DNA of 64,000 nucleotides from an uncultured Actinomycetota bacterium (GCA_963707425.1 CAVPPN010000005.1:128832-192831); one strand, 5' to 3'. Shown: positions 51,139 through 62,147, numbered from the stretch's first letter. Numbers and translations: made by a program. The notes: generated from the letters alone by a model not told the origin.

Positions 51139-53928
51139 TCACCATCGGACCAGCCCCCAGATGCCGGCACGGGGTTCCTCCTGCGCTCCGATCTCGGCAA
51201 AGATCTCGACGGCCGCCTTGAGGTGTGCCATCGCGTCCTCCGACCGGCCGGAGGCGTGCAAGAGGTCGGCAAGGTTGTTGTGCAGGGCCGCTTCATGATG
51301 TCGGTCCCCCATGGCCGTGCACAGTTCCAGCGCCGCGAACGTCAGGTCGATCGCGCTGCCGAGCTCGTGGCGGGCTCGATGGGCCAGCGCCAGGTTGTTC
51401 AGCGCGGCCACCCGCAGGTCCTGGTCCCCCTCCTGGTCGGCCAGCTCCCGGCTGCGGCCAAGGCTCTCCAAGGCCCCCTCGGTGTCCCCATGGGCAGTGG
51501 CCAGCATCCCCAGCAGGTTGTACGCCTGACACAGGGCCCGGGGGTCACCGGCCTTCTCTGCCAGCGACCGGGCCCGAGCCGCGAGGAGCTGAGCCCTGGA
51601 CCCGTCGCCGAGAGAGTGCGCGGCCAGGCTGAGGTCCGCCGTGATGCCTGAACGGGTCGAGGGGTCCGCGTCGGCGGCCGCCGACAGCGCTGCCTCGAGA
51701 TGTGCCTCTGCCAGGGCGAACTCGCCGCGGCGATGCTGCAGGCGGCCGAGCCGTCGCTCGACCGCAGGCACCTCGCCGGGATCGCAGCCGGCGGCGGCGG
51801 TCTCGAGAGTGAGCATCGCTCCGCTGTAGTCCCCCATCACGGTCTGCAGGTCGCCGATCGCGGTCTGCAGCTGGGTCCGGTCGGGGTGTCCCAGCGCCAG
51901 TGCCGTTCGGAAGTGCTCGAGCGCTTCGGCGTTGGCGAACACCTCCCGGGCCAGCTCGCCGGCGACGCGGAAGGCGCGGGCGGCCTCCTCGTCCCGACCG
52001 GCCAGCTGGAGGTGCCGGGCCACGGAGGCCGGCGGCGAGCCAGGCACCCGGGTAGCCCTTCCGTGCAGCAGCCGTCGACGCGCGAGGCTGGTCTCGTCGT
52101 ACACCACCGCCCGAAGCAGGTCGTGGGCGAAGTCGTAGTCGTACCTGCCCTCGACGACGAGCCCGCGCCCGACGAGCTCCTCGAGCGCCGTCACGGTCTC
52201 CTCGTCGGTGCGCCCACTCACGGCGCGCAGTGCCTCCGCGTCGAAGGACCGGCCGAGTACGGCGGCGGCGGACAGGACCTGCCGACCTGTCTCGCTCACC
52301 GGGTCGAGCCGGCCCCGCAGCAGCGCGCGCACGCCGGTCGGAAGCGGCCACTCGTCCTCCACGCCAGGTGTGCGGAGGTACTCGACGAGCAGCAGCGGGA
52401 CGCCCTCGGTCTTCTCCCAGAGACGCCGGACGGCGGCCGGGTCCCGGTCCCCGGCCCTGGCTGCGTGCACCATCGCCATTACGGCTTCCGGTCCCAACCG
52501 CTCGAGGTGGACCACGGCCCCTTCCCCGGCTCGGACGACCGTGGTGAGGGCACGACGGAGGGGGTGGTCGTGCGGGGTTCGCCAGGTGAGAAGGACCAGC
52601 AACGGTCGGCCGGCCAACCGGCGCAGTCCGTAGGTCAGCAGCCCGAGCGTCGCATCGTCGGCCCACTGCACGTCGTCGATGAACAGCGCTCCGGGGCCGC
52701 TGCCACTCGCGGCCGCGACGAGGGTGTCCCAGACGCCGGACAGGAAGCGGGTCTCGGCGCCAGGCCACTCGAGCGACGGAGCAGGGTCGACCGACCGGCC
52801 GACCCCGAGCTCTGGCACGAGGCGGACCGCCTCCCCCAGGGCGCGGACCTCGACGCCGGCCAGCCAGTCGTCGCCGACGCGGAGCCTGCTGCGCAGGGCC
52901 TCCACGACGGAGGCGTAGGCGAGGCCGGCCTCGTCCTCGTACGCTCGTCCGACCAGGACACGGCCGCTGTGGCCGCGCACCCAGGAGAGCAGCTCCTCCG
53001 CGAGCCGGGTCTTGCCGATTCCCGCCTCTCCCTCGATCAGGACCAAGCGGCCGTCCGCGCCGATCGCGTCGTACACGGCTCGAAGCGCAGCCAGGTCCTC
53101 CGTTCGTCCGACGAACGGTGATGCCATCGGCTCCGCCTCCGGGGCGGTCGCCGTGACGGCAGCCTGTCTCGGCGCCGCGTATGTTCCTCGGCTGATCCCC
53201 TCGTAGAGCTCCGTCGTCTCCGACAGCGGCGGCACGCCGAGCTCGCGGGAGAGGGTTCTGACGCACTCGCGGTACTGCGTGAGTGCAGCGGCCCGGTCCC
53301 CGGTCGCGGCGTACAGCCGGATCAACGCCTGATGGGCCGGCTCGTGCAGCGGGTCGATCGCGAGCCATCGCCGTGCGGACAGCAGGGCGGCGGTCAGGTC
53401 CCCCACCGCCTCGCGCTCCTGTGTCATGGCTGCGAGCGCGGCGGTGAGCTGGCGACGCAGACCGTCGCCCTCGAGCTGTACCCAGTCCTCGAAGCCGGGC
53501 GCCTGTCGTACGGCGAAACCCTCGAGGAAGTCACCCCGGAACAGGTCGACGGCCCGCTGCAGGTCCCCGCGCCTGCAGAGCTCGCGGAAACGGTCGACGT
53601 CCACGTCGATACCAGGGCCCTTGACCAGGCGCACATGGTCGCGGGTCGCCTCGACCAGCTCCGCCCCGATCGCGTCACGCAGCGCTGACAAGGTGCGCCG
53701 CAGGGCGCCGCGGGCATGTTCCGGGTCGTTGTCCGGCCAGAGCAGGTCCGCCAACGCGTCTCGGGTGCGCGATCTGTCGGTGACGGTCAGGAGCGCGAGC
53801 AGGGCCACGGCCTTGCGGGTGTCGAATGCGACGAGTTCCCCGTCCCGCATCACACGCGGGGGGCCCAGAAGGCTGACCTCGATCACCTGGGCCATCCGTT
53901 CCCGACCGGCCATGACACCGGTCGCCAA
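51139..53928 (-). CDS. SARP/AfsR-type regulator (winged-helix + BTAD + P-loop NTPase + TPR)
   Basis: 929-aa ORF. LLGPPRVMRDGELVAFDTRKAVALLALL, BTAD region, GEAGIGKTRL, and C-terminal TPR-like repeats. The start may instead be ATG 53895. Confidence 0.85.
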   Translation of the reverse strand: MATGVMAGRERMAQVIEVSLLGPPRVMRDGELVAFDTRKAVALLALLTVTDRSRTRDALADLLWPDNDPEHARGALRRTLSALRDAIGAELVEATRDHVRLVKGPGIDVDVDRFRELCRRGDLQRAVDLFRGDFLEGFAVRQAPGFEDWVQLEGDGLRRQLTAALAAMTQEREAVGDLTAALLSARRWLAIDPLHEPAHQALIRLYAATGDRAAALTQYRECVRTLSRELGVPPLSETTELYEGISRGTYAAPRQAAVTATAPEAEPMASPFVGRTEDLAALRAVYDAIGADGRLVLIEGEAGIGKTRLAEELLSWVRGHSGRVLVGRAYEDEAGLAYASVVEALRSRLRVGDDWLAGVEVRALGEAVRLVPELGVGRSVDPAPSLEWPGAETRFLSGVWDTLVAAASGSGPGALFIDDVQWADDATLGLLTYGLRRLAGRPLLVLLTWRTPHDHPLRRALTTVVRAGEGAVVHLERLGPEAVMAMVHAARAGDRDPAAVRRLWEKTEGVPLLLVEYLRTPGVEDEWPLPTGVRALLRGRLDPVSETGRQVLSAAAVLGRSFDAEALRAVSGRTDEETVTALEELVGRGLVVEGRYDYDFAHDLLRAVVYDETSLARRRLLHGRATRVPGSPPASVARHLQLAGRDEEAARAFRVAGELAREVFANAEALEHFRTALALGHPDRTQLQTAIGDLQTVMGDYSGAMLTLETAAAGCDPGEVPAVERRLGRLQHRRGEFALAEAHLEAALSAAADADPSTRSGITADLSLAAHSLGDGSRAQLLAARARSLAEKAGDPRALCQAYNLLGMLATAHGDTEGALESLGRSRELADQEGDQDLRVAALNNLALAHRARHELGSAIDLTFAALELCTAMGDRHHEAALHNNLADLLHASGRSEDAMAHLKAAVEIFAEIGAQEEPRAGIWGLVRW

Positions 53929-54008: not shown

Positions 54009-55187
54009 ATGTGCCCTCGGCGCAGTCGCAGCGCTTCTGTCCTCGCCTGGTCCCTTTGGGGCCTGTGGGTGGCGTTGTCGGCTTTGATCGTCTGGCTGAC
54101 CCTGCCTGAGCCGACTGACGAAGCGTTCGAGGTCGCACTGGTGGGTTTCGCCACCGTCGGTGCCCTCGTGGCCGCACGACAGCCGCGAAACGCCTTGGGT
54201 TGGATGCTGCTCGCGTTCGCCCTTGTGCTCGCACTCCAAACGGCGGCTGACGTCTACGCGAGCACGGAGTCCTACCCCGGGTACCTGGCTGCCGCCTGGT
54301 TTGCGACGTGGGTCTGGTACGTCTGGGTGCTGCTCATCCTGGTCTTCGTCCCGCTGGTGTTCCCTGACGGGCACCTGCTCTCTCGGCGTTGGCGACCCGT
54401 CGCGTGGCTCGGGGGCGCCGCGATGGTGGCAAGCATCGTCGGGGCCGCGTTCAAGCCAGGCGAGCTGGACGTGTCCGCGGTGATAACGAACCCGCTCGCT
54501 GTGAGCGGAGGCGCCGGCGACGTCTTCGCAACCCTCGAGAGCACGGGGACTGTCCTCCTCGCCCTTGCTGTCCTCCTGACGGCTGGGTCGCTCATTGTCC
54601 GCTTCCGGCGCTCGCGTGGCGTGGAACGTCAGCAGCTGAAGTGGTTCGCGTTCGCGGGACTGCTGGTGTTGGGGGGCTGGACACTGGCGGCGGTCGATGC
54701 ACTGGTGGAAAGCGCATGGTCGGAGCCTGTCGGATCTGTGGGCTGGACGATGTTCATGTTGGCGAGCATCCTCGGGATTCCGGGGGCGACCGGGATCGCG
54801 ATCTTCCGATACCGGCTCTATGACATCGACCTGGTCATCAACCGCACCCTGGTCTACGGCGTGCTGACGGTGGCACTGGTAACGACGTACGTCGGCTCGG
54901 TGCTCGTACTGCGGCTGGTGCTGAGCCCGATCACAGGAGACTCCGCCCTCGCGGTCGCGGGATCGACGCTGGCGGTCGCGGCGCTCTTCCGTCCCGCCAG
55001 GAGACGCATCCAGGATGTGGTCGACCGGCGGTTCTACCGGCGACGCTACGACGCCGCCAGGATCCTGGACGAGTTCGCGAACCGGCTGCGCCACGAGCTG
55101 GACCTCGACGCGGTCGGCGCCGACCTGTGCGCGGCCACCGTAGCGACCCTCCAGCCCACACACGTCTCCCTCTGGGTCCGACCATGA
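54009..55187 (+). CDS. sensor-like polytopic membrane protein, paralog 1 of 4
   Basis: 392 aa, ~10 hydrophobic helices. Blocks RQPRNALGW, FPDGHLLSRRWRPVAWL, RFRRSRGVERQQLKW, LYDIDLVINRTLVYG, RFYRRRYDA. Ends SLWVRP-stop with a CCATGA junction. Confidence 0.8.
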   Translation: MCPRRSRSASVLAWSLWGLWVALSALIVWLTLPEPTDEAFEVALVGFATVGALVAARQPRNALGWMLLAFALVLALQTAADVYASTESYPGYLAAAWFATWVWYVWVLLILVFVPLVFPDGHLLSRRWRPVAWLGGAAMVASIVGAAFKPGELDVSAVITNPLAVSGGAGDVFATLESTGTVLLALAVLLTAGSLIVRFRRSRGVERQQLKWFAFAGLLVLGGWTLAAVDALVESAWSEPVGSVGWTMFMLASILGIPGATGIAIFRYRLYDIDLVINRTLVYGVLTVALVTTYVGSVLVLRLVLSPITGDSALAVAGSTLAVAALFRPARRRIQDVVDRRFYRRRYDAARILDEFANRLRHELDLDAVGADLCAATVATLQPTHVSLWVRP

Positions 55188-56449
55188 GTGCCACCTCGGA
55201 CCGCACGCCGCCGACCTCGGGCTCGGGCATGGTCCACCGCCCGGTCGCCGACGTGGAGCTCGACACGGGAACGGTTGCGACCCGTCGCAGCGCCTCGGTC
55301 CTGGCATGGTCCCTGTGGGGGCTATGGGTGGCGTTGTCAGCGCTGACTCTGTGGCTGGCCCTGCATCGGGGCGCGCCAAGCGCAGGTTTCGGCCTGCTCG
55401 TCGTCGGGGTGGTCACGGTCGGGGCCATCGTGGGCTCACGTCGCCCCCGCAACGCGGTGGGATGGCTGCTGCTCGCACTCGCGCTGACCTTCACTCTCGG
55501 GGCCGTCGGCGACGCCTACGTGTCGACACGGCCGCACACCGGCTACCTCGCTGTGGCGTGGGTGGTCGGGTGGCTGTGGTACGTGTGGCTGTTCCTCATC
55601 GGGATCTTCGTCCCGCTCGTGTTCCCCGACGGGCACCTGCTCTCGCGACGCTGGCGACCCGTCCTCTGGCTCGGGGTCGCGGCGCTGGTGGCGTGCGTCG
55701 TGGGGGCCGCGTTCAAGTCGGGCGAAATGGAGGTAACAGGGTCGGTCCAGAACCCCCTGGCCGCACCCGGCGTCGCAGGCGAGGCGTTCAGTGCCCTCGA
55801 GACCCTGGGTGGGGTTCTCCTCGTGGTGGCGGTTCTACTCACGACCACGTCGCTCGTTCTTCGCTTCCGGCGCTCCCACGGCGTCGAGCGCCAGCAGCTG
55901 AAGTGGTTCGCGTTCGCGGGCATGCTCGTAGTGGTGGGCCTGACCCTGGCCGCGACCGATGACCTGCTGCCGGGAGCTTGGACCGTTCCTGTCGGAGGGG
56001 TGGGCTGGAGCATGTTCCTCTTCGGGTGCGTTGTCGGAATTCCCGTAGCGACGGGCATCGCGATCTTCCGGCACCACCTCTACGACATCGACGTGGTCAT
56101 CAACCGCACCCTGGTCTATGGGTCGCTCACCGTGATGCTCGGCGCTACGTACGTCGGCTCCGTGCTCCTGCTCGAGCTGGTCCTGAACCCCCTGACGCAC
56201 AACTCCGACCTGGCGATCGCGGCCTCGACGTTGGCGGTGGCTGCCCTCTTCCGCCCCGCGAGAACACGCATCCAGGCCGGGGTGGACCGGCGGTTCTACC
56301 GACGGCGGTACGACGCTTCCCGGACCCTGGACGACTTCGCGAACCGGCTGCGGCACGAGCTGGACCTCGATGCCGTGGGCACTGACCTCTGCGCGGCCGC
56401 CGAGGAGACCGTGCAGCCGTCCCACGTCTCCCTCTGGATCCGGCCATGA
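55184..56449 (+). CDS. sensor-like polytopic membrane protein, paralog 2 of 4
   Basis: Within ORF 55127..56449. ATG 55184 overlaps the paralog 1 stop (ATGA). Same blocks; ends SLWIRP-stop with a CCATGA junction. Confidence 0.8.
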   Translation: MSATSDRTPPTSGSGMVHRPVADVELDTGTVATRRSASVLAWSLWGLWVALSALTLWLALHRGAPSAGFGLLVVGVVTVGAIVGSRRPRNAVGWLLLALALTFTLGAVGDAYVSTRPHTGYLAVAWVVGWLWYVWLFLIGIFVPLVFPDGHLLSRRWRPVLWLGVAALVACVVGAAFKSGEMEVTGSVQNPLAAPGVAGEAFSALETLGGVLLVVAVLLTTTSLVLRFRRSHGVERQQLKWFAFAGMLVVVGLTLAATDDLLPGAWTVPVGGVGWSMFLFGCVVGIPVATGIAIFRHHLYDIDVVINRTLVYGSLTVMLGATYVGSVLLLELVLNPLTHNSDLAIAASTLAVAALFRPARTRIQAGVDRRFYRRRYDASRTLDDFANRLRHELDLDAVGTDLCAAAEETVQPSHVSLWIRP

Positions 56450-57687
56450 CGACCCCGTCAGACCGCGCTCTGCGGCGGACGGCCTGGGTGGTGGCCTCGT
56501 TCGTGCCCGCCATGACCGTCGTCGGAGCGGCGTTGACGTTCGCGGAGCCGCCCGTCGGCAACTCGTGGGGAGACTTTGTGGGCGAGCTGGCCTTCCTCGT
56601 CGTCGTAGCGACTTTCCCGCTCGTCGGTCTACTCATCTTGCGACGTCAACCACGCAACACGGTCGGTTGGCTGCTTCAGGGCGTCGGTTTCCTCTGGGGG
56701 CTTTCCATGGTGGCCGACATCTACGCCACCTATGGGCTCCTGGTGGACCCGGGCTCGCTGCCGGGTGCCGATGTCGTAGAGGGAGCCGCTCAAGGAAGCT
56801 GGGCGCCCGGGATCGGGCTGATGGGAACCTTCCTGATCCTCCTCTACCCCGACGGGCACCTGCCGACGCCGCGTTGGCGACCGGTCGCCTGGCTCTCCGC
56901 GGTGACCATCGTCGTCGTCACCACCACCATCGCGCTCCTGCCCGGGCGGATGGACGAGAGCGCCGTGCCTGACACGAGGAACCCGATCGGTCTGGAGGGA
57001 GCCGCGCCGGTTCTCGACGTCGTGCTGGCCGTCTTCCTGCCGCTCCTGCCGCTGTGCATCCTTGCATGCGCGGTCTCGCTGGTACGGCGCTTCCGTCGCT
57101 CACACGGCGTCGAGCGGTTGCAGCTGAAGTGGCTCGCGACAGCAGGAGCCGTCGTTGCCGTCCTGTACCTGCTCACCATGGCTGGGTCCTTCCTCACCGC
57201 AACCACCGCCTTCGCTGACGGGTCACCTCTCTGGGTCACGACGCTCCAGACCGTGTCGATCCTGTCGTTCGCGCTCCTGCCCGTGGCAATCGGCATCGCC
57301 GTTCTCCGGCATGGTCTCTACGGCATCGACGTCGTCATCAACCGCACCCTGGTGTACGGGTCGCTGACCGTGACGCTCGCCGGGGTGTACGTCGGATCGG
57401 TGCTCCTCCTGCAGCTGGTCCTGAGCCCTGTGACCAGCCAGTCCGACCTTGCTGTCGCAGGCTCGACCCTGGTGGTCGCGGCACTGTTCCGCCCCGCCCG
57501 GACACGGATCCAGAGCGCAGTGGACCAGCGGTTCTACAGGAGCCGGTACGACGCTGCTCGAACACTCGAGGCCTTCACGTCCCGCCTCCGGCACGAGCTC
57601 GACCTCGACGCGGTGGGCAACGACCTGCGCACCACCGTCGACGAGACCGTGCAGCCGGCCCATCTCTCCCTGTGGCTACGACCATGA
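56446..57687 (+). CDS. sensor-like polytopic membrane protein, paralog 3 of 4
   Basis: 413 aa. Same blocks (RQPRNTVGW, YPDGHLPTPRWRPVAWL, RFRRSHGVERLQLKW). Ends SLWLRP-stop with a CCATGA junction. Confidence 0.8.
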   Translation: MTTPSDRALRRTAWVVASFVPAMTVVGAALTFAEPPVGNSWGDFVGELAFLVVVATFPLVGLLILRRQPRNTVGWLLQGVGFLWGLSMVADIYATYGLLVDPGSLPGADVVEGAAQGSWAPGIGLMGTFLILLYPDGHLPTPRWRPVAWLSAVTIVVVTTTIALLPGRMDESAVPDTRNPIGLEGAAPVLDVVLAVFLPLLPLCILACAVSLVRRFRRSHGVERLQLKWLATAGAVVAVLYLLTMAGSFLTATTAFADGSPLWVTTLQTVSILSFALLPVAIGIAVLRHGLYGIDVVINRTLVYGSLTVTLAGVYVGSVLLLQLVLSPVTSQSDLAVAGSTLVVAALFRPARTRIQSAVDQRFYRSRYDAARTLEAFTSRLRHELDLDAVGNDLRTTVDETVQPAHLSLWLRP

Positions 57688-58928
57688 CCCGGGTATCCGA
57701 CACGGCGCTTCGACGGCGGGCCTGGGCTCTGCTGTCGCTCTTCGCCGGGGTGCTCATCAGCCGGGGCACGATCAGCCTGGTGGAGCCCCGGGTGCGAGAC
57801 GGGCACGGTGCCGTCGCCGCCCTCGGTGAGGTCGGGATCGTTCTCCTCGTCGCCAGCTTCCCGGTCACCGCGCTGGTCATACTGCGCAGCAAACCGCGCA
57901 ACCGGATCGGCTGGTTGCTGATGGCGATCGGAGCCGTCTGGACGCTTGGCGCTCTGGCCGACGGCTACGCCCGGTACGCGCTGCTCGTGAGCCCGGGATC
58001 GCTGCCTCGACCCGATGTCGCGGCTGTGCTGAACGCAGTCAGCTGGGCTCCCGGTCTGGGCCTGATGGGCACGTTCCTGATCCTGCTGTTCCCGGATGGT
58101 CGTCTCCCCTCACCTCGGTGGCGTCCCGTTGCCTGGCTGTCCGCCGCCACAGTCGCGGCGCTCACGGTGACTCTGCTGCTGACGCCCGGTGAGCTCGACG
58201 TCGGCCCGATGCCGTCGCTGCGCAACCCCTTCGGTGTGGAGTCCGCCCGTTCGGTCCTCACCGTGCTGCTGGGCTTCCTGCTGCCTTTGCTGCCGATCTG
58301 CATCGGGGCGTGTGCCCTGGCCCTCGTCCTGCGTTTCCGACGCTCACGCGGGGTCGAGCGGCTGCAGCTCAAGTGGCTGACCACGGCGGCTGCGTTGGTG
58401 GCCCTCCTCTTCCTGTTCTCGTTCTCGGTCTCCCTGCTCTCGGGATCTCTCTCCGGTGACACACAGCCCGAGTGGATGGACGTGCTGGACGCGGCGTCGT
58501 TCCTGTCGTTCCTCCTCATCCCGGTGGCGATCGGCACCGCCGTCCTGAGACACAAGCTCTACGACATCGACCTGGTGATCAACCGTGCCCTGGTGTACGG
58601 CTCACTCACCGTGACACTGGCCATCACGTACGTCGGGTCGGTCCTCGTCCTGCAACGGGCTGTCAGCCCGGTCACCAGCGAGTCCGACCTGGCTGTCGCC
58701 GGGTCGACGCTGGTTGTTGCCGCGCTCTTCCGCCCGGCCCGGTCGCGCATCCAGGCAGCCGTGGACCGACGGTTCTACCGGAGCCGCTACGACGCAGCCA
58801 AGACGTTGGACGCATTCGCGGTCCGGCTGCGCCACGAGCTGGACCTCGACTCCGTGGGAGCCGACCTCCGCGCCACAGTCGACGAGACCGTGCAACCGGC
58901 CCACCTCTCCCTCTGGCTACGACCGTGA
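57684..58928 (+). CDS. sensor-like polytopic membrane protein, paralog 4 of 4
   Basis: Within ORF 57672..58928. ATG 57684 overlaps the paralog 3 stop. Ends SLWLRP-stop, here with junction CCGTGA. Confidence 0.8.
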   Translation: MTRVSDTALRRRAWALLSLFAGVLISRGTISLVEPRVRDGHGAVAALGEVGIVLLVASFPVTALVILRSKPRNRIGWLLMAIGAVWTLGALADGYARYALLVSPGSLPRPDVAAVLNAVSWAPGLGLMGTFLILLFPDGRLPSPRWRPVAWLSAATVAALTVTLLLTPGELDVGPMPSLRNPFGVESARSVLTVLLGFLLPLLPICIGACALALVLRFRRSRGVERLQLKWLTTAAALVALLFLFSFSVSLLSGSLSGDTQPEWMDVLDAASFLSFLLIPVAIGTAVLRHKLYDIDLVINRALVYGSLTVTLAITYVGSVLVLQRAVSPVTSESDLAVAGSTLVVAALFRPARSRIQAAVDRRFYRSRYDAAKTLDAFAVRLRHELDLDSVGADLRATVDETVQPAHLSLWLRP

Positions 58929-58999
58929 TGGGCGACAACCCCGCCGGCCGACGAGCTGTAACGGTTGGTGGACGGTCAGGCATTAGAAAGGTCCTCACC

Positions 59000-60640
59000 A
59001 TGACTGCAATCACAGCCTCGTTCCGGCGCCGCCTCCTCGGCCGCTCGGCTACGCCGGGAGCGGCGAACGGGCCCGTGGAGCCCGTGGCCGAGCCCTCAGG
59101 TGAGGCGGTGCCCGTCGACATCACACCGAACGACCCGCTCCTGGCCTACCTGCAGAGTGCCAACGGAGTCGTGGACATCGACACGCTGAAGCTCGACTCG
59201 CCCGGTCTCGCCGCCATGAAGGCCGCAGGCGTGAAGCTTGCCGTCCCCCTGGTCAGCCAGGGCGAGCTGATCGGCGTACTGAGCCTCGGCCCGCGACGCT
59301 CCGCACAGGACTACTCGACCGACGACCGGAAGCTGCTGGACGCCCTGGCTGCACAGGCCGCGCCGGCAGTCCGGGTCGGGCAGCTCGTTCGTCAGCAGGA
59401 GGCAGAGGCCCGGACCAGGGAACGGTTCGAGCAGGAGCTCGAGGTCGCACGGCTGATCCAGCAGAACTTCCTGCCCAAGGAGCTGCCTGATCTCCCCGGC
59501 TGGGAGATCGCCGCCCTGTACCGGCCGGCGCGCGAGGTCGGTGGGGACTTCTACGACGTGATCCCCCTGCCAGACGGGCGGATCGGGTTCGTGGTGGGAG
59601 ACGTCACCGACAAGGGCGTACCGGCCGCCCTGGTCATGGCGGCGACCCGGAGTGTGCTCCGGGCATCGGCGCAGCGGCTGGTCGACCCGCGGGAGGTCCT
59701 CGAGCGCGTGAACGAGCATCTGTGTCCGGACATGCCCGCCAAGATGTTCGTCACCTGTCTGTACGGCGTACTGGAGCCGGACACGGGGCGCTTCCGCTTC
59801 GCCAACGCCGGGCACGACCTGCCGTACGTGAAGACCTCGGGCGGGTCCGTCGAGCTCCGGGCCCGAGGGATGCCGCTCGGTCTGATGCCCGGGATGGCGT
59901 ACGAGGAGAGCGAGACCATCCTGGCTCCCGGCGACTCGCTGCTCCTGCATTCGGACGGGATCGTCGAAGCGCACGACCCCGACGGTCAGATGTTCGGCTT
60001 CCCACGCCTGAAGGACGCGGTTGCGAGGTATCCCGGCGGCGGTGCGCTGATCGAGCTCGTGCTCAAGGACCTGCGCGCGCACACCGGGCCCGAGGCGGAG
60101 CAGGAGGACGACATCACGATGCTCACCCTGGCCCGGGCCGCGTCGTCGGCCCCTGGAGGAGACGGCTCGACGCTCTCTGGCCAGGTCGTGGAGTTCGACG
60201 TCCCCAGCATGGAGGGCAACGAGCGCCTGGCGCTGGAGCGAGTGAGCACGATCGTCGCGCCGCTCGGCCTGGTCGAGGCCCGGCGCAAGCGTCTGGAGAC
60301 GGCCGTCGCGGAGGCCACGATGAACGCGATGGAGCACGGGAACCGCTACAGCGCCGACAAGCCGGTCACCGTGCGGGTGATGACCGGGTCGGACGAGGTA
60401 CGGGTCCAGATCGTCGACCACGGCGGGGGCCCCTCCGGCGACGAGAACGAGGTGCCCGACATCGAGGCGAAGCTTGCGGGCCTCCAGCGCCCGCGTGGGT
60501 GGGGGTTGTTCCTCATCAAGGAGATGGTCGACGAGGCGCACGAGTCCAGCGACGGGGAAGAGCACATCCTCGAGCTGGTGATGCGCCTCGGCGACGACTC
60601 GACCGACCGACTTGCCGGAGGCAGCGATGGCAACCAGTGA
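59000..60640 (+). CDS. partial-GAF-like N-terminus + PP2C (SpoIIE) phosphatase + RsbW/SpoIIAB-type HATPase kinase fusion
   Basis: Within ORF 58472..60640. ATG 59000 preferred on codon bias; GTG 58925 is the alternative. VPLVSQGELIGVLSLGPR; GGDFYDVIP...VVGDVTDKG...HSDGIVE; N-box EATMNAMEHGN, DHGGG, GWGLFLI. Confidence 0.85.
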   Translation: MTAITASFRRRLLGRSATPGAANGPVEPVAEPSGEAVPVDITPNDPLLAYLQSANGVVDIDTLKLDSPGLAAMKAAGVKLAVPLVSQGELIGVLSLGPRRSAQDYSTDDRKLLDALAAQAAPAVRVGQLVRQQEAEARTRERFEQELEVARLIQQNFLPKELPDLPGWEIAALYRPAREVGGDFYDVIPLPDGRIGFVVGDVTDKGVPAALVMAATRSVLRASAQRLVDPREVLERVNEHLCPDMPAKMFVTCLYGVLEPDTGRFRFANAGHDLPYVKTSGGSVELRARGMPLGLMPGMAYEESETILAPGDSLLLHSDGIVEAHDPDGQMFGFPRLKDAVARYPGGGALIELVLKDLRAHTGPEAEQEDDITMLTLARAASSAPGGDGSTLSGQVVEFDVPSMEGNERLALERVSTIVAPLGLVEARRKRLETAVAEATMNAMEHGNRYSADKPVTVRVMTGSDEVRVQIVDHGGGPSGDENEVPDIEAKLAGLQRPRGWGLFLIKEMVDEAHESSDGEEHILELVMRLGDDSTDRLAGGSDGNQ

Positions 60641-60989
60641 CCTGCCCACCGAGGTACGACGGCGCGAGCACGTGGCGGTGATCGACCTGATGGGTGACGT
60701 GAACGCAGGAGCCGAGGAGTCGCTGAACGCGGCATGGGACGAGGCCACTCTCGGAGGTCCCGACGCCGTGGTCCTCAACTTCGAGGGTGCGGGCTACATC
60801 AACTCCACCGGCATCGCGTTGATCGTCGGGCTGCTCGCCAGGGCCCGAGCGCACACGATCCCGATCCGGGCCTACGGGCTGAGCCCTCATTACCGGGAGA
60901 TCTTCGAGATCACCCGCCTGGCGGACTTCCTGGCGATCCGGCCCGACGAGGACAGCGCCGTCCGCGGCGCGGACAGGAGCAACGCATGA
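60627..60989 (+). CDS. STAS domain protein (anti-sigma-factor antagonist-like) 1
   Basis: Within ORF 60612..60989. GGAGG RBS before ATG 60627. VVLNFEGAGYINSTGIALIVGLL carries a candidate phospho-Ser/Thr. Confidence 0.8.
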   Translation: MATSDLPTEVRRREHVAVIDLMGDVNAGAEESLNAAWDEATLGGPDAVVLNFEGAGYINSTGIALIVGLLARARAHTIPIRAYGLSPHYREIFEITRLADFLAIRPDEDSAVRGADRSNA

Positions 60990-61336
60990 CCGAGGCAACA
61001 GCGACCTTCGACGTACGCCGGCAGGGAAATGCCAGCGTCGTGGACATCCGGGGGGACGTGACAGCGGGTTCGGAGGACGTGCTCATGAGCGCGTACAACG
61101 CGGCGGGCGACGTCGGGGCGATCGTGCTCAACTTCTCCGACCTCTCGTACATGAACAGTGGCGGGATCGGGCTGCTGGTGACCTTGCTGGTGCGCGCGAA
61201 CCGGCGCTCCCAGCGGTTGCTGGCCTACGGCCTCAGCGACCACTACCGGCAGATATTCGAGCTGACCCGCCTCGACGAGGCCGTCAGCATCCACGACAGC
61301 GAGCGGTCCGCGCTCAACGCGGCCGGCGCCGGGTAG
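60986..61336 (+). CDS. STAS domain protein (anti-sigma-factor antagonist-like) 2
   Basis: Within ORF 60734..61336. ATG 60986 (ATGA overlap). IVLNFSDLSYMNSGGIGLLVTLL. Confidence 0.8.
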   Translation: MTEATATFDVRRQGNASVVDIRGDVTAGSEDVLMSAYNAAGDVGAIVLNFSDLSYMNSGGIGLLVTLLVRANRRSQRLLAYGLSDHYRQIFELTRLDEAVSIHDSERSALNAAGAG

Positions 61337-61364: not shown

Positions 61365-62147
61365 ATGGGCGACCAGGACGAGAGGACACACGTGCAGGCT
61401 GTCGAGACGCAGTCGGCCGCTCGTGACACCGCCCACTGGGCGAAGTCGGTGTCGAGACTGACCGTCTCCAACGTGCCCGAGGGGGCCGTCAACCTCAACG
61501 TGGCGGGGAAGCGCCTCGCCGGGCCGATCCAGGGCTTCGGCAAGATGTGGCAGAAGACCTACCAGGTGCGACTCCCCGGCGAACTGGTGTCGGCGACCGA
61601 TCTGGTCACCGTGTGGAAGGAGCGGTTCCCCGACTTCTGGCCGGAGGGCAACAGGTTCTACGCGCCGCTGACCGGCATCGAGCCTGGGGAGGTCGCGCTG
61701 ATCAACTCGAAGCTTCCTGGTGGCGTGAAGCTGTCTACCGGCGTCATGGTGCTCTACGCCGACGACGAGTCGTTCACGCTGATGACGCCGCAAGGCCATG
61801 TGTTCGCCGGCTGGATCACGTTCAGCGCAGCGGAGCGCGACGGCGAGACGGTGGCCCAGGCGCAGGTGCTCATGCGCGCATCCGACCCGATCTTCGAGCT
61901 CGGCATGGCGCTGGGCGGGCACCGCCAGGAGGACCAGTTCTGGGCAGAGACCCTGCGTGGCGTCGCGGCCTACTTCGGCGAGTCACCGGAGGTCGACACG
62001 CACGTCGTGTGCGTGGACAAGAGGCGTCAGTGGTCCCGGTGGAGCAACGTCTGGCACTCCGCGGCCATCCGCTCGACCGGCTACATGCTCGCGGCCCCTG
62101 TACGGGGCGTGCGTTCACTGGCCCACCGCCGGCCGAAGGTCGTCTGA
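61365..62147 (+). CDS. hypothetical protein, last gene of the sensor/PP2C/STAS cluster
   Basis: 260-aa ORF with GGGAAGGGAGGA upstream of the ATG. No motif I can name with confidence. Confidence 0.65.
   Translation: MGDQDERTHVQAVETQSAARDTAHWAKSVSRLTVSNVPEGAVNLNVAGKRLAGPIQGFGKMWQKTYQVRLPGELVSATDLVTVWKERFPDFWPEGNRFYAPLTGIEPGEVALINSKLPGGVKLSTGVMVLYADDESFTLMTPQGHVFAGWITFSAAERDGETVAQAQVLMRASDPIFELGMALGGHRQEDQFWAETLRGVAAYFGESPEVDTHVVCVDKRRQWSRWSNVWHSAAIRSTGYMLAAPVRGVRSLAHRRPKVV

What the first reader, a model, noticed from the sequence alone, without database searches (positions are those of the whole stretch)
58729..59405. Hypothesis: a GAF-like domain split between each sensor tail and the N-terminus of the single PP2C-kinase effector
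The last ~30 residues of every paralog (ELDLDxVGxDLxxxVxETxQPxHxSLWLRP) read like the opening helix and first strand of a GAF domain. The generic pattern is LDLDELLxxIxxxxxxLLxADxxxIxLLD. The polypeptide then ends. After about 35 residues, the effector protein reads like the remainder of a GAF: DPLLAYLQSANGVVDIDTLKLDSPGLAAMKAAGVKLAVPLVSQGELIGVLSLGPRRSAQDYSTDDRKLLDALAAQAAPAVRVGQLV. That includes the VPLxxxGxLIGVLxL...(F/Y)xxxDxxLLxxLAxQAAxA signature, but it has no helix-1/strand-1 equivalent of its own. I recall single-chain proteins in which ...QPxHVSLWLR is followed by ...VPLVSQGELIGxLxLGPR.... I cannot verify this here. If correct, four alternative membrane sensors could each complete the effector's regulatory domain in trans, acting as a modular sensor cassette system feeding one phosphatase/kinase.
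Basis: inference. Interest (0 to 1): 0.85.

Follow-up and report, generated by a model that had tools for sequence, protein, structure and literature searches.

The report
Split GAF domain linking sensors to phosphatase
Four tandem membrane proteins each end with the first helix and strand of a GAF sensor domain, the next gene's phosphatase/kinase starts with the rest of that domain, and many single-chain relatives carry both halves fused, so the sensors probably plug into one shared effector by completing its fold.

Summary

- **Layout.** Four overlapping-coupled paralogous genes for roughly 10-TM proteins (54009-58928) each end in a conserved 70-aa cytoplasmic tail. The next gene (59000-60640) encodes 40 disordered residues, a partial GAF, a PP2C (SpoIIE) domain and an RsbW-like kinase. 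Two STAS genes follow.
- **Pfam.** GAF models match only the C-terminal part of the domain in the effector. Tail+effector concatenates extend PF01590 coverage to nearly full length. A shuffled tail does not.
- **Fused relatives.** Among the best 144 representative homologues, 75 are single chains of tail, a variable 3-93 aa loop and the GAF remainder. Pfam GAF spanned the whole model in most of the nine fused proteins scanned. 67 are split like this one.
- **Structure.** An AF2 model of the P4 tail joined to effector 1-150 is confident (pLDDT 88, pTM 0.78). It matches whole GAF domains (TM 0.55-0.66). The effector alone matches half a domain (TM 0.21-0.44).
- **Synteny.** 71 of 80 related species carry 1 to at least 6 tail-bearing sensors upstream of a split effector.

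Trans-completion itself is inferred, not shown. I found no literature on a naturally split GAF.

The parts
54009..55187 (+). Sensor paralog P1 (392 aa), polytopic membrane protein with no Pfam or NCBIfam family. Tail at 54975-55184.
   Evidence: ORF and translation. No Pfam hit. About 10 hydrophobic segments with alternating K/R-rich loops. Tail located by tblastn.
55184..56449 (+). Sensor paralog P2. The likely start is ATG 55184, overlapping the P1 stop as ATGA; the mechanical ORF starts at 55127. Tail at 56237-56446.
56446..57687 (+). Sensor paralog P3 (413 aa). Its ATG overlaps the P2 stop as ATGA. Tail at 57475-57684.
57684..58928 (+). Sensor paralog P4 (414 aa). Its ATG overlaps the P3 stop as ATGA.
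   Evidence: Its closest database relatives are ~415-aa stand-alone proteins of Nocardioidaceae MAGs.
58716..58925 (+). P4 cytoplasmic tail (70 aa): juxtamembrane helix, then GAF helix alpha1 (LDSVGADLRATVDET) and strand beta1 (LSLWL). The polypeptide ends two residues after the strand.
   Evidence: AF2 chimera elements H6-40, H44-58 and E64-68, with block-mean pLDDT 92-95 over chimera residues 41-70, which contain the alpha1 helix and beta1 strand. 56% identical to the N-terminus of fused P0121. Tails are 70-86% identical among paralogs, against 34-64% for the membrane bodies.
59000..59119 (+). Effector N-terminal 40 residues: a basic motif (MTAITASFRRRLLGR) conserved in split effectors, then a variable Pro/Ala/Glu-rich spacer. 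It is not a substitute for alpha1/beta1.
   Evidence: The motif is conserved across 55 split effectors and is not seen in the fused junctions examined. pLDDT is 39-50 when the effector is modelled alone. It forms a helix at pLDDT 67-80 in the chimera.
59120..59389 (+). GAF remainder (effector residues 41-130): helix DPLLAYLQ, helix SPGLAAMK, beta-hairpin KLAVPLVSQ/GELIGVLSLG, and the start of the long C-terminal helix.
   Evidence: Pfam GAF_2, GAF_3 and GAF partial matches. AF2 pLDDT ~94. Foldseek matches GAF structures only over 71-126 columns.
59390..59569 (+). Helical linker from the GAF C-terminal helix into the phosphatase domain.
   Evidence: AF2 helix 107-149, reaching the end of the modelled fragment. 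The role of such linkers in PPM phosphatases is described in PMC12143880.
59570..60133 (+). PP2C/SpoIIE phosphatase domain (effector residues 191-378).
   Evidence: PF07228, E = 3.9e-52, profile 1-190/192.
60224..60574 (+). RsbW-like anti-sigma kinase domain (HATPase_c_2, effector residues 409-525).
   Evidence: PF13581, E = 3.8e-18. Weak NCBIfam matches, far below the curated cut-offs, to anti-sigma F factor and RsbW models.
60627..60989 (+). STAS anti-sigma-factor antagonist 1. Contains ...YINSTGIA..., with a Ser in the position of the phosphorylatable Ser.
   Evidence: PF01740. TIGR00377 at 53.3 bits, marginally below its 53.45 cut-off. Sequence shown.
60986..61336 (+). STAS anti-sigma-factor antagonist 2. 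Its ATG overlaps the STAS1 stop as ATGA. Contains ...YMNSGGIG....
   Evidence: PF01740, and TIGR00377 above its cut-off.

Best explanation
This is one operon encoding a partner-switching signalling module whose input GAF-like domain has been cut in two by gene fission.

**The two halves.** Each of four divergent polytopic membrane sensors carries, after its last transmembrane helix, a long cytoplasmic helix followed by GAF helix alpha1 and strand beta1, and then stops. The single soluble effector carries the remaining elements of the same domain. A continuous helix joins these to a PP2C phosphatase and an RsbW-like kinase. Two STAS proteins are the likely substrates and partners.

**Proposed mechanism (inferred).**
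1. A sensor tail inserts its helix and strand into the effector's incomplete GAF. This is fold complementation, conceptually like donor-strand complementation in pili.
2. Docking tethers the effector to the membrane and recreates the sensor-GAF-linker-PP2C signalling path of the fused relatives.
3. Conformational changes in the sensor's membrane domain then pass through the reconstituted GAF and the helical linker to switch the phosphatase.
4. The phosphatase sets the phosphorylation state of the STAS antagonists relative to the kinase / anti-sigma domain.

The four tails are nearly interchangeable while the membrane bodies differ. The sensors are therefore alternative, possibly competing, inputs to one output.

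**Shown:** the gene structure, homology of both halves to one contiguous GAF in fused relatives, incompleteness of the effector's domain, compatibility of the two halves in a confident model, and conserved synteny.

**Inferred:** physical trans-association, its stoichiometry, and the direction of regulation.
For: - **Gene structure.** Four tandem sensor genes are joined by ATGA overlaps, followed by the effector and two STAS genes.
- **Effector GAF is partial.** It covers only profile positions 34-127 or 81-135. Concatenation with any of the four tails extends PF01590 to near full length and adds 1-4.3 bits. A shuffled tail does not.
- **Fused homologues.** P0121 is 55-57% identical to both halves. 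The exhaustive search gave 14,547 representatives at E <= 1e-3. Of the best 144, 75 are fused with a 3-93 aa variable loop exactly at the fission point, and 67 are split.
- **GAF coverage in fused proteins.** At least one Pfam GAF model spans essentially the full profile (from position 1-2) in 6 of the 9 fused proteins scanned. Outputs include SpoIIE+HATPase_c_2, as here (P0247, P0258). Fused P0247 and P0385 are single genes followed by a STAS gene, with no other gene between; neither the called-gene tables nor Pfam flag a stand-alone sensor upstream, but the unannotated upstream ORFs were not tested for the tail.
- **AF2 chimera.** pLDDT 88.2, pTM 0.78, block-mean pLDDT 92-95 over chimera residues 41-70, which contain the alpha1 helix and beta1 strand. 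All top Foldseek hits are GAF domains, with 167-207 aligned columns and TM 0.55-0.66 for single-domain targets.
- **Effector alone.** Residues 1-40 are disordered. Foldseek TM is 0.21-0.44 over 71-126 columns.
- **Synteny.** 71 of 80 GTDB species loci with a split effector have 1 to at least 6 tail-bearing ORFs upstream on the same strand. None of these 80 is fused. The taxa span Actinomycetota and Chloroflexota.
- **Tail conservation.** Tails are more conserved than sensor bodies (70-86% vs 34-64%). Their conservation pattern matches that of fused proteins (rho 0.72). Strand beta1 is more conserved in split sensors than in fused proteins, e.g. W 100% vs 80%.
- **Topology.** K/R-rich loop alternation is consistent with a cytoplasmic tail.
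- **Linker mechanism.** Taken from PMC12143880.
Against: - No direct test of a two-chain complex was possible. The AF2 chimera was a single chain with an MSA of fused homologues, so it shows compatibility rather than affinity in trans.
- The Pfam score gain on concatenation is small (1-4 bits), and GAF_2 and GAF_3 do not extend.
- The reconstituted domain is a reduced GAF: one hairpin, beta1 and a two-residue strand. It may not bind a ligand.
- Nine of 80 related loci show no sensor upstream, some because the contig ends. In 34 loci another gene lies between the last sensor and the effector, an SRPBCC protein in the one locus examined (L001).
- Higher conservation of the tail may partly reflect narrower taxon sampling of the split set.
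Confidence: 0.62

Rival explanations
1. The fission is real but there is no fold complementation. The effector's partial GAF is a degenerate, self-sufficient dimerisation module. The sensors signal some other way, or regulate the effector through the effector's conserved basic N-terminal motif. The tail is just the sensors' own oligomerisation helix.
For: The effector remainder is predicted at pLDDT ~94 on its own. Split effectors have a conserved N-terminal basic motif that fused forms lack, and it could be the real docking element. The Pfam gain on concatenation is small.
Against: The effector alone has only a hairpin and lacks the central strand, so it matches half a GAF. The tails keep the same conserved helix and strand residues as fused proteins, and beta1 is even more conserved. 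That is hard to explain if the tail no longer packs against the rest of the domain. The sensors have no other cytoplasmic domain.
Confidence: 0.2
2. The tails act as competitive decoys or inhibitors rather than as signal-transmitting inputs. Binding of any tail sequesters the effector at the membrane in an off (or on) state, and the stimulus releases it. This resembles RsbT release from the stressosome. No allosteric transmission through a rebuilt GAF is involved.
For: This uses the same structural evidence as the main model. The ratio of sensors to effector is 4:1 to at least 6:1, with translational coupling. That ratio suits sequestration.
Against: In fused relatives the same elements are covalently wired as sensor-GAF-linker-PP2C. 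This argues for transmission through the domain. Nothing in hand distinguishes the two modes.
Confidence: 0.13
3. Artefact or decay: the stop codons after SLWLRP are sequencing or assembly errors, or pseudogenising mutations, in what are really fused genes.
For: Many database relatives are frameshifted fragments from long-read MAGs. P0248 looks like a read-through of a junction.
Against: All four paralogs stop at the same residue, and the next gene's ATG overlaps the stop. The same arrangement is found in 71 of 80 species, including cultured Kribbella isolates. Split effectors share their own conserved N-terminus, and the window's effector has a Shine-Dalgarno site. Three of the four tails are followed by another sensor, not by a GAF remainder.
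Confidence: 0.02

Closest known systems
Single-chain membrane-sensor-GAF-SpoIIE(-HATPase_c_2) phosphatases (e.g. P0247, 947 aa; P0258, 1008 aa; annotated 'serine phosphatase RsbU / anti-sigma regulatory factor' or 'GAF domain-containing SpoIIE family protein phosphatase')
   Same: Homologous tail, GAF remainder, linker, PP2C and kinase. P0247, the 947-aa fused query, aligns over the tail through the GAF remainder (query 2-187). The window paralogs' membrane domains were not compared with those of fused proteins. P0247 and P0385 are each followed directly by a STAS gene.
   Different: One polypeptide with one sensor per effector. The GAF is contiguous, with a variable 3-93 aa loop where the window's genes are cut. 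The fused junctions examined show no basic N-terminal motif. Neither the called-gene tables nor Pfam flag a stand-alone sensor upstream at the two loci examined, but the unannotated upstream ORFs were not tested for the tail.
GAF-regulated PPM phosphatases of partner-switching pathways (C. difficile RsbZ, S. coelicolor OsaC, M. tuberculosis Rv1364c-type fusions), as discussed in PMC12143880
   Same: An N-terminal sensory domain is connected by a helical linker to a PP2C. Rv1364c-type proteins also carry an RsbW-like kinase in the same chain. STAS antagonists are the substrates.
   Different: Those proteins have complete sensory domains in cis and are soluble. None is reported to receive half of its GAF from a separate membrane protein. 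This comparison rests on the paper and on general knowledge. No sequence comparison with those proteins was run.
Donor-strand complementation in chaperone-usher pili (established knowledge)
   Same: An incomplete fold missing a beta-strand is completed by a strand donated from another polypeptide. Several alternative donors can fit the same acceptor.
   Different: Unrelated fold (Ig-like) and function (fibre assembly). Here a helix plus a strand would be donated, for signalling. This is an analogy only.
Engineered split bacteriophytochrome / GAF reporters (iSplit, miSplit; general knowledge)
   Same: They show that phytochrome-derived fragments including a GAF domain can reassemble non-covalently.
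   Different: They are artificial and are split between PAS and GAF rather than inside the GAF. They have no membrane sensors.

Membership tests
GAF domain (Pfam PF01590 / PF13185 / PF13492) | HMM score above the gathering threshold | tested here: met
   Effector: GAF_2 36.1 (threshold 28.6), GAF_3 31.0 (27), GAF 30.0 (22.4). The tail alone gives no hit.
GAF domain (Pfam PF01590 / PF13185 / PF13492) | Full-length match to the domain model within one polypeptide | tested here: not met
   The effector covers only profile 84-135/136, 34-127/129 and 82-132/133. Near-full coverage appears only in tail+effector concatenates (1/4/15/16-132) and in natural fused homologues (1-133 in most of those scanned).
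GAF domain (Pfam PF01590 / PF13185 / PF13492) | GAF fold: central antiparallel sheet packed by N- and C-terminal helices | tested here: met
   The tail+effector chimera hits only GAF structures among the top 50 listed hits, with probability 0.99-1.00 and TM 0.55-0.66 to single-domain GAFs such as 4y2f, 3eea and 3jab_B. The effector alone gives TM 0.21-0.44 over 71-126 columns. The sheet is reduced to beta1, a two-residue strand and one hairpin.
GAF domain (Pfam PF01590 / PF13185 / PF13492) | Small-molecule binding pocket | not testable with these tools
   No coordinates were available and no ligand is known. The domain is smaller than ligand-binding GAFs.
Gene-fission ('Rosetta stone') pair | The two separate proteins are homologous to adjacent parts of one protein elsewhere | tested here: met
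   P0121 aligns with the tails and with the effector N-terminus. 75 of the best 144 representatives are fused.
Gene-fission ('Rosetta stone') pair | The two halves are conserved as neighbours | tested here: met
   71 of 80 species loci have tail-bearing ORFs upstream on the same strand, and 37 are directly adjacent.
Gene-fission ('Rosetta stone') pair | Physical association of the two products | not testable with these tools
   No multimer prediction was available. Only a single-chain chimera was modelled.
RsbU/RsbW/RsbV-type partner-switching module | PP2C (PPM) phosphatase domain | tested here: met
   SpoIIE PF07228, E = 3.9e-52, full-length profile. The Asp-containing motifs GDFYD, GDVTDKG, HSDG and DDIT are visible in the sequence.
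RsbU/RsbW/RsbV-type partner-switching module | RsbW/SpoIIAB-like serine kinase / anti-sigma domain | tested here: met
   HATPase_c_2 PF13581, E = 3.8e-18. Weak NCBIfam hits to SpoIIAB and RsbW models, below the equivalog cut-offs.
RsbU/RsbW/RsbV-type partner-switching module | STAS antagonist with a phosphorylatable Ser | tested here: met
   Two STAS genes hit PF01740; STAS2 passes the TIGR00377 cut-off and STAS1 falls 0.15 bit short. A Ser lies in the NSTG / NSGG motif. Phosphorylation itself was not tested.
RsbU/RsbW/RsbV-type partner-switching module | Cognate sigma factor or other output | not tested
   I did not search for a sigma factor gene beside the operon. The downstream 260-aa ORF has no family.

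The most novel reading that the evidence does not exclude
A widespread, uncharacterised signalling architecture in Actinomycetota and Chloroflexota. Arrays of up to six or more divergent membrane sensors time-share one PP2C/kinase effector by donating the first helix and strand of its GAF domain. This would be a natural split-domain, donor-strand-like complementation used as a modular plug-and-socket for signal integration. Competition between tails and sensor abundance would set which input controls the partner-switching output.
Probability: 0.5. Interest if true: 0.85.

Novelty: new variant of a known kind. Interest (0 to 1): 0.7.

Why it matters
Sensory domains are usually treated as indivisible units that are shuffled whole between proteins. 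Here a GAF appears to be cut inside the fold, with one half multiplied on different membrane sensors and the other half kept once on the effector.

If the halves reassemble, three things follow:
- It explains how output-less membrane proteins from a family of thousands, with no Pfam or NCBIfam model, can signal.
- It gives a simple evolutionary route to many-to-one signal integration in partner-switching pathways.
- It provides a natural, evolved split-GAF pair that could be used as a protein-fragment complementation tool.

It also warns annotators that 'GAF domain-containing SpoIIE phosphatases' of this type are incomplete without their upstream neighbours. The hypothesis is directly testable in cultured Kribbella species.

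Tried and rejected
- **P4 as a homologue query.** The top 120 hits were all ~415-aa stand-alone sensors, so it was useless for finding fusions. A chimeric tail+GAF query and an exhaustive search with the fused fragment solved this.
- **Regex classification of fused versus split.** It failed because beta1 is poorly conserved in fused proteins. I replaced it with phmmer of the two halves.
- **Short 'GAF-only' proteins on long contigs.** They looked like a possible three-way split but are frameshifted gene calls. Rejected.
- **PDB sequence search with the fused domain.** It matched only the C-terminal hairpin and helix of two GAF structures, so no solved close relative exists.
- **Effector's basic N-terminal peptide as a Tat signal or a replacement for alpha1/beta1.** No hydrophobic h-region follows the Arg run, and AF2 leaves it disordered. 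Rejected.
- **Read-through or frameshift fusion of P4 and the effector.** Frame 0 after the TGA meets a TAA 11 codons later. Three tails are followed by another sensor, and in L001 an SRPBCC gene lies between the last sensor and the effector. Rejected.
- **Literature searches.** Searches for a split, partial or truncated GAF and for GAF with gene fission found nothing relevant.
- **Inter-protein covariation.** I judged this underpowered with about 60 fused and about 70 split pairs and no model coordinates, so I did not attempt it.
Full report
**1. What is at the coordinates**

The window is high-GC (about 69%). The closest protein relatives come from Nocardioidaceae MAGs.

The interval 58729-59405 spans three things:
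- the last ~66 residues of a 414-aa membrane protein, P4 (57684-58928);
- a 71-nt spacer;
- the first 135 residues of a 546-aa protein (59000-60640).

P4 is the last of four tandem paralogs: P1 54009-55187, P2 55184-56449, P3 56446-57687 and P4. Their start codons overlap the preceding stop as ATGA.

The effector has a good Shine-Dalgarno site (AGAAAGG) before ATG 59000. An alternative ATG at 58928 overlaps the P4 stop. Orthologues begin with the same MT..FRRR motif, which favours 59000.

Two STAS genes follow, at 60627-60989 and 60986-61336, again with overlapping junctions. This is one translationally coupled operon.

**2. The observation**

All four paralogs end ...RLRHELDLDxVGxDLxxxxxxTxQPxHxSLWxRP-stop.

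The window holds exactly four such tails and one GAF remainder.

The paralogs have about ten hydrophobic segments with alternating K/R-rich loops and a K/R-rich C-terminus, which is consistent with a cytoplasmic tail. They match no Pfam or NCBIfam family.

Identity between paralogs is 34-64% in the membrane body and 70-86% in the last 70 residues.

The effector contains:

| Domain | Residues | Note |
|---|---|---|
| SpoIIE / PP2C | 191-378 | E = 3.9e-52 |
| HATPase_c_2 (RsbW-like) | 409-525 | E = 3.8e-18 |
| GAF_2, GAF_3, GAF | within 26-124 | above threshold, but only profile positions 84-135/136, 34-127/129 and 82-132/133 |

**3.

| Query | PF01590 score (bits) | Profile coverage |
|---|---|---|
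| Effector 1-140 alone | 32.6 | 81-132 |
| 60-aa tail alone | no hit | none |
| Tail (P1-P4) + effector | 33.6-36.9 | starts at 1, 4, 15 or 16, ends at 132 |
| Shuffled tail + effector | 32.2 | 82-132 |

The gain is small, and GAF_2 and GAF_3 do not extend. By itself this is weak support.

**4. Fused homologues exist and are common**

A chimeric tail+remainder query found P0121. This natural fragment reads ...[76 protein letters not shown]...VPLVSQGELIGLLNLGPR....

- The four tails are 55-56% identical to its N-terminal part, and the effector N-terminus is 57% identical in the same alignment.
- An exhaustive phmmer search of 1.84 billion representatives with P0121[1-187] gave 14,547 hits at E <= 1e-3.
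- Of the best 144, 75 contain both halves in one chain and 67 are split-type, with the remainder starting near residue 40.
- In the fused proteins, the segment between beta1 and the DPL helix varies from 3 to 93 residues. In some it looks like a beta2 strand (e.g. GGYRLRAQYP). The window's fission falls exactly in this variable loop.

Pfam on nine fused proteins aligns at least one GAF model over essentially the whole profile (from position 1-2 to the end) in most of them (6 of 9, e.g. P0242 residues 408-547), starting in the tail-homologous helix. In P0247 and P0362 only the C-terminal part aligns, and in P0258 the GAF match stops at profile position 130.

Outputs seen are SpoIIE alone, PAS+SpoIIE, or SpoIIE+HATPase_c_2. 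The last is the window's output (P0247, P0258).

Fused P0247 and P0385 are single genes followed directly by one STAS gene; neither the called-gene tables nor Pfam flag a stand-alone sensor upstream, but the unannotated upstream ORFs were not tested for the tail.

GAF is an ancient single-chain fold, so the split state is most simply derived by fission. This is an inference.

**5. Structure**

*Chimera.* AF2 of the P4 tail (70 aa) joined to effector 1-150, with an MSA of 51 fused homologues, gave mean pLDDT 88.2 and pTM 0.78. Its elements are:
- H6-40, the juxtamembrane helix;
- H44-58 (alpha1) and E64-68 (beta1), both within the chimera residue 41-70 blocks whose mean pLDDT is 92-95;
- a low-confidence stretch covering the effector's first 45 residues;
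- H116-123, H138-145, the hairpin E150-156/E159-166, and H177-219.

Foldseek against the PDB returned only GAF domains among the top hits. Alignments covered 167-207 columns, with target-normalised TM of 0.55-0.66 for single-domain GAFs such as KdpD GAF 4y2f, 3eea and 3jab_B.

*Effector alone.* Effector 1-150, with an MSA of 54 split effectors, leaves residues 1-40 at pLDDT 39-50. It folds the rest into two short helices, one hairpin and the long helix. Foldseek aligns only 71-126 columns, with TM 0.21-0.44 and best E = 1.5e-3.

The effector therefore does not model as a complete autonomous domain, while the tail plus effector does.

*Caveats.*
- The chimera was one chain with an MSA of fused proteins.
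- I could not read coordinates or PAE.
- The rebuilt domain is a reduced GAF.

**6. Conservation of the arrangement**

A scan of one genome per GTDB species with the split-effector alignment kept the 80 best loci.
- None of the 80 is fused.
- 71 have between 1 and at least 6 tail-bearing ORFs upstream on the same strand. The count is limited by the 7-kb flank.
- 37 are directly adjacent, often with overlapping stop and start codons.
- 34 have a 450-1935 nt gap. In L001 this gap holds a 150-aa SRPBCC / Polyketide_cyc2 gene.

The taxa include Nocardioidaceae, cultured Kribbella, Solirubrobacterales, Thermoleophilia, Gaiellales and Chloroflexota.

Per-column entropy of 199 distinct split-sensor tails correlates with that of 51 fused proteins (rho 0.72, p = 7e-12), and nearly all strongly conserved positions have the same consensus residue. 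The beta1 motif HVSLWLR is more conserved in the split set than in the fused set: W 100% vs 80%, H 83% vs 25%, R 89% vs 31%. This fits an interface that must now hold without a covalent link. Narrower sampling of the split set may contribute.

Split effectors also share an N-terminal basic motif (M-T-x-x-T-x-x-F-R-R-R-L) that the fused junctions examined lack. Its role is unknown. It may be an auxiliary docking or membrane-binding element.

**7. Mechanism**

*Shown.*
- The sensors have no output domain other than the tail.
- The effector's input domain lacks exactly what the tails carry.
- The two are one domain in many relatives.
- They are conserved neighbours.

*Inferred.*
- A tail docks into the effector's incomplete GAF.
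- This re-creates the path from sensor through GAF and helical linker to PP2C.
- According to PMC12143880, helical linkers of this kind control PPM phosphatase dimers downstream of diverse sensory domains, including GAF.
- The phosphatase and the in-chain RsbW-like kinase would then set the phosphorylation state of the two STAS proteins.

Four divergent membrane bodies with near-identical tails imply alternative inputs to one output. Whether docking transmits a signal, sequesters the effector, or both, cannot be decided here.

**8. Comparison and novelty**

The module belongs to the known class of GAF-regulated PP2C partner-switching systems. Its closest relatives are the fused membrane-GAF-SpoIIE(-HATPase_c_2) proteins.

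What is new is the cut inside the GAF fold and the amplification of the N-terminal half on several membrane proteins. Full-text searches for a split, partial or truncated GAF, and for GAF with gene fission, returned nothing relevant.

I rate this a new variant of a known kind. My confidence is:
- about 0.9 that the two pieces are halves of one GAF-like domain;
- about 0.6 that they reassemble in trans as the functional input.

Noticed in passing
window 55184, 56446, 57684, 58926-58930, 60627, 60986: Almost every junction in the seven-gene operon is an overlapping stop/start: ATGA between the sensors and between the two STAS genes, TGATG at P4/effector, and a 14-nt overlap at effector/STAS1. 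This implies tight translational coupling and roughly fixed sensor-to-effector ratios.
   Followed up: partly
window 59000-59044: Split effectors share a basic N-terminal motif (MTAITASFRRRLLGR here) that the fused junctions examined lack. AF2 leaves it disordered when the effector is modelled alone and makes it a weak helix in the chimera. It has no Tat-like hydrophobic region. Its function is unknown.
   Followed up: partly
window 61365-62147 (+): A 260-aa ORF immediately downstream of STAS2 has no Pfam or NCBIfam match. It may belong to the operon.
   Followed up: no
L001:6511-6963: In L001, the one gap locus examined, a 150-aa SRPBCC / Polyketide_cyc2 gene sits between the last sensor and the effector. 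34 of the 80 related loci have such a gap; the window lacks it.
   Followed up: partly
protein P0340 (954 aa): A PDZ domain is followed by two tail matches (residues 409-474 and 878-942). This looks like two sensors fused head to tail, or a merged gene call.
   Followed up: no
protein P0244 (3952 aa): A giant protein with 19-20 tandem GAF domains followed by HisKA and HATPase_c.
   Followed up: no
window 51139-53928 (-): A large BTAD + AAA_16 + TPR (SARP/AfsR-like) regulator is encoded divergently just upstream of the sensor array.
   Followed up: no
tails in L001-L080 versus fused homologues: The beta1 motif H-V-S-L-W-L-R is much more conserved in stand-alone sensors than in fused proteins (W 100% vs 80%, H 83% vs 25%). 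This would be expected if the strand must bind without a covalent tether.
   Followed up: partly
effector residues 44-143 (window 59129-59428): A weak NCBIfam match to the XrtA/PEP-CTERM histidine kinase PrsK (TIGR02916, profile 370-475, E = 1.9e-6). It hints that similar GAF segments also occur in histidine kinases.
   Followed up: no
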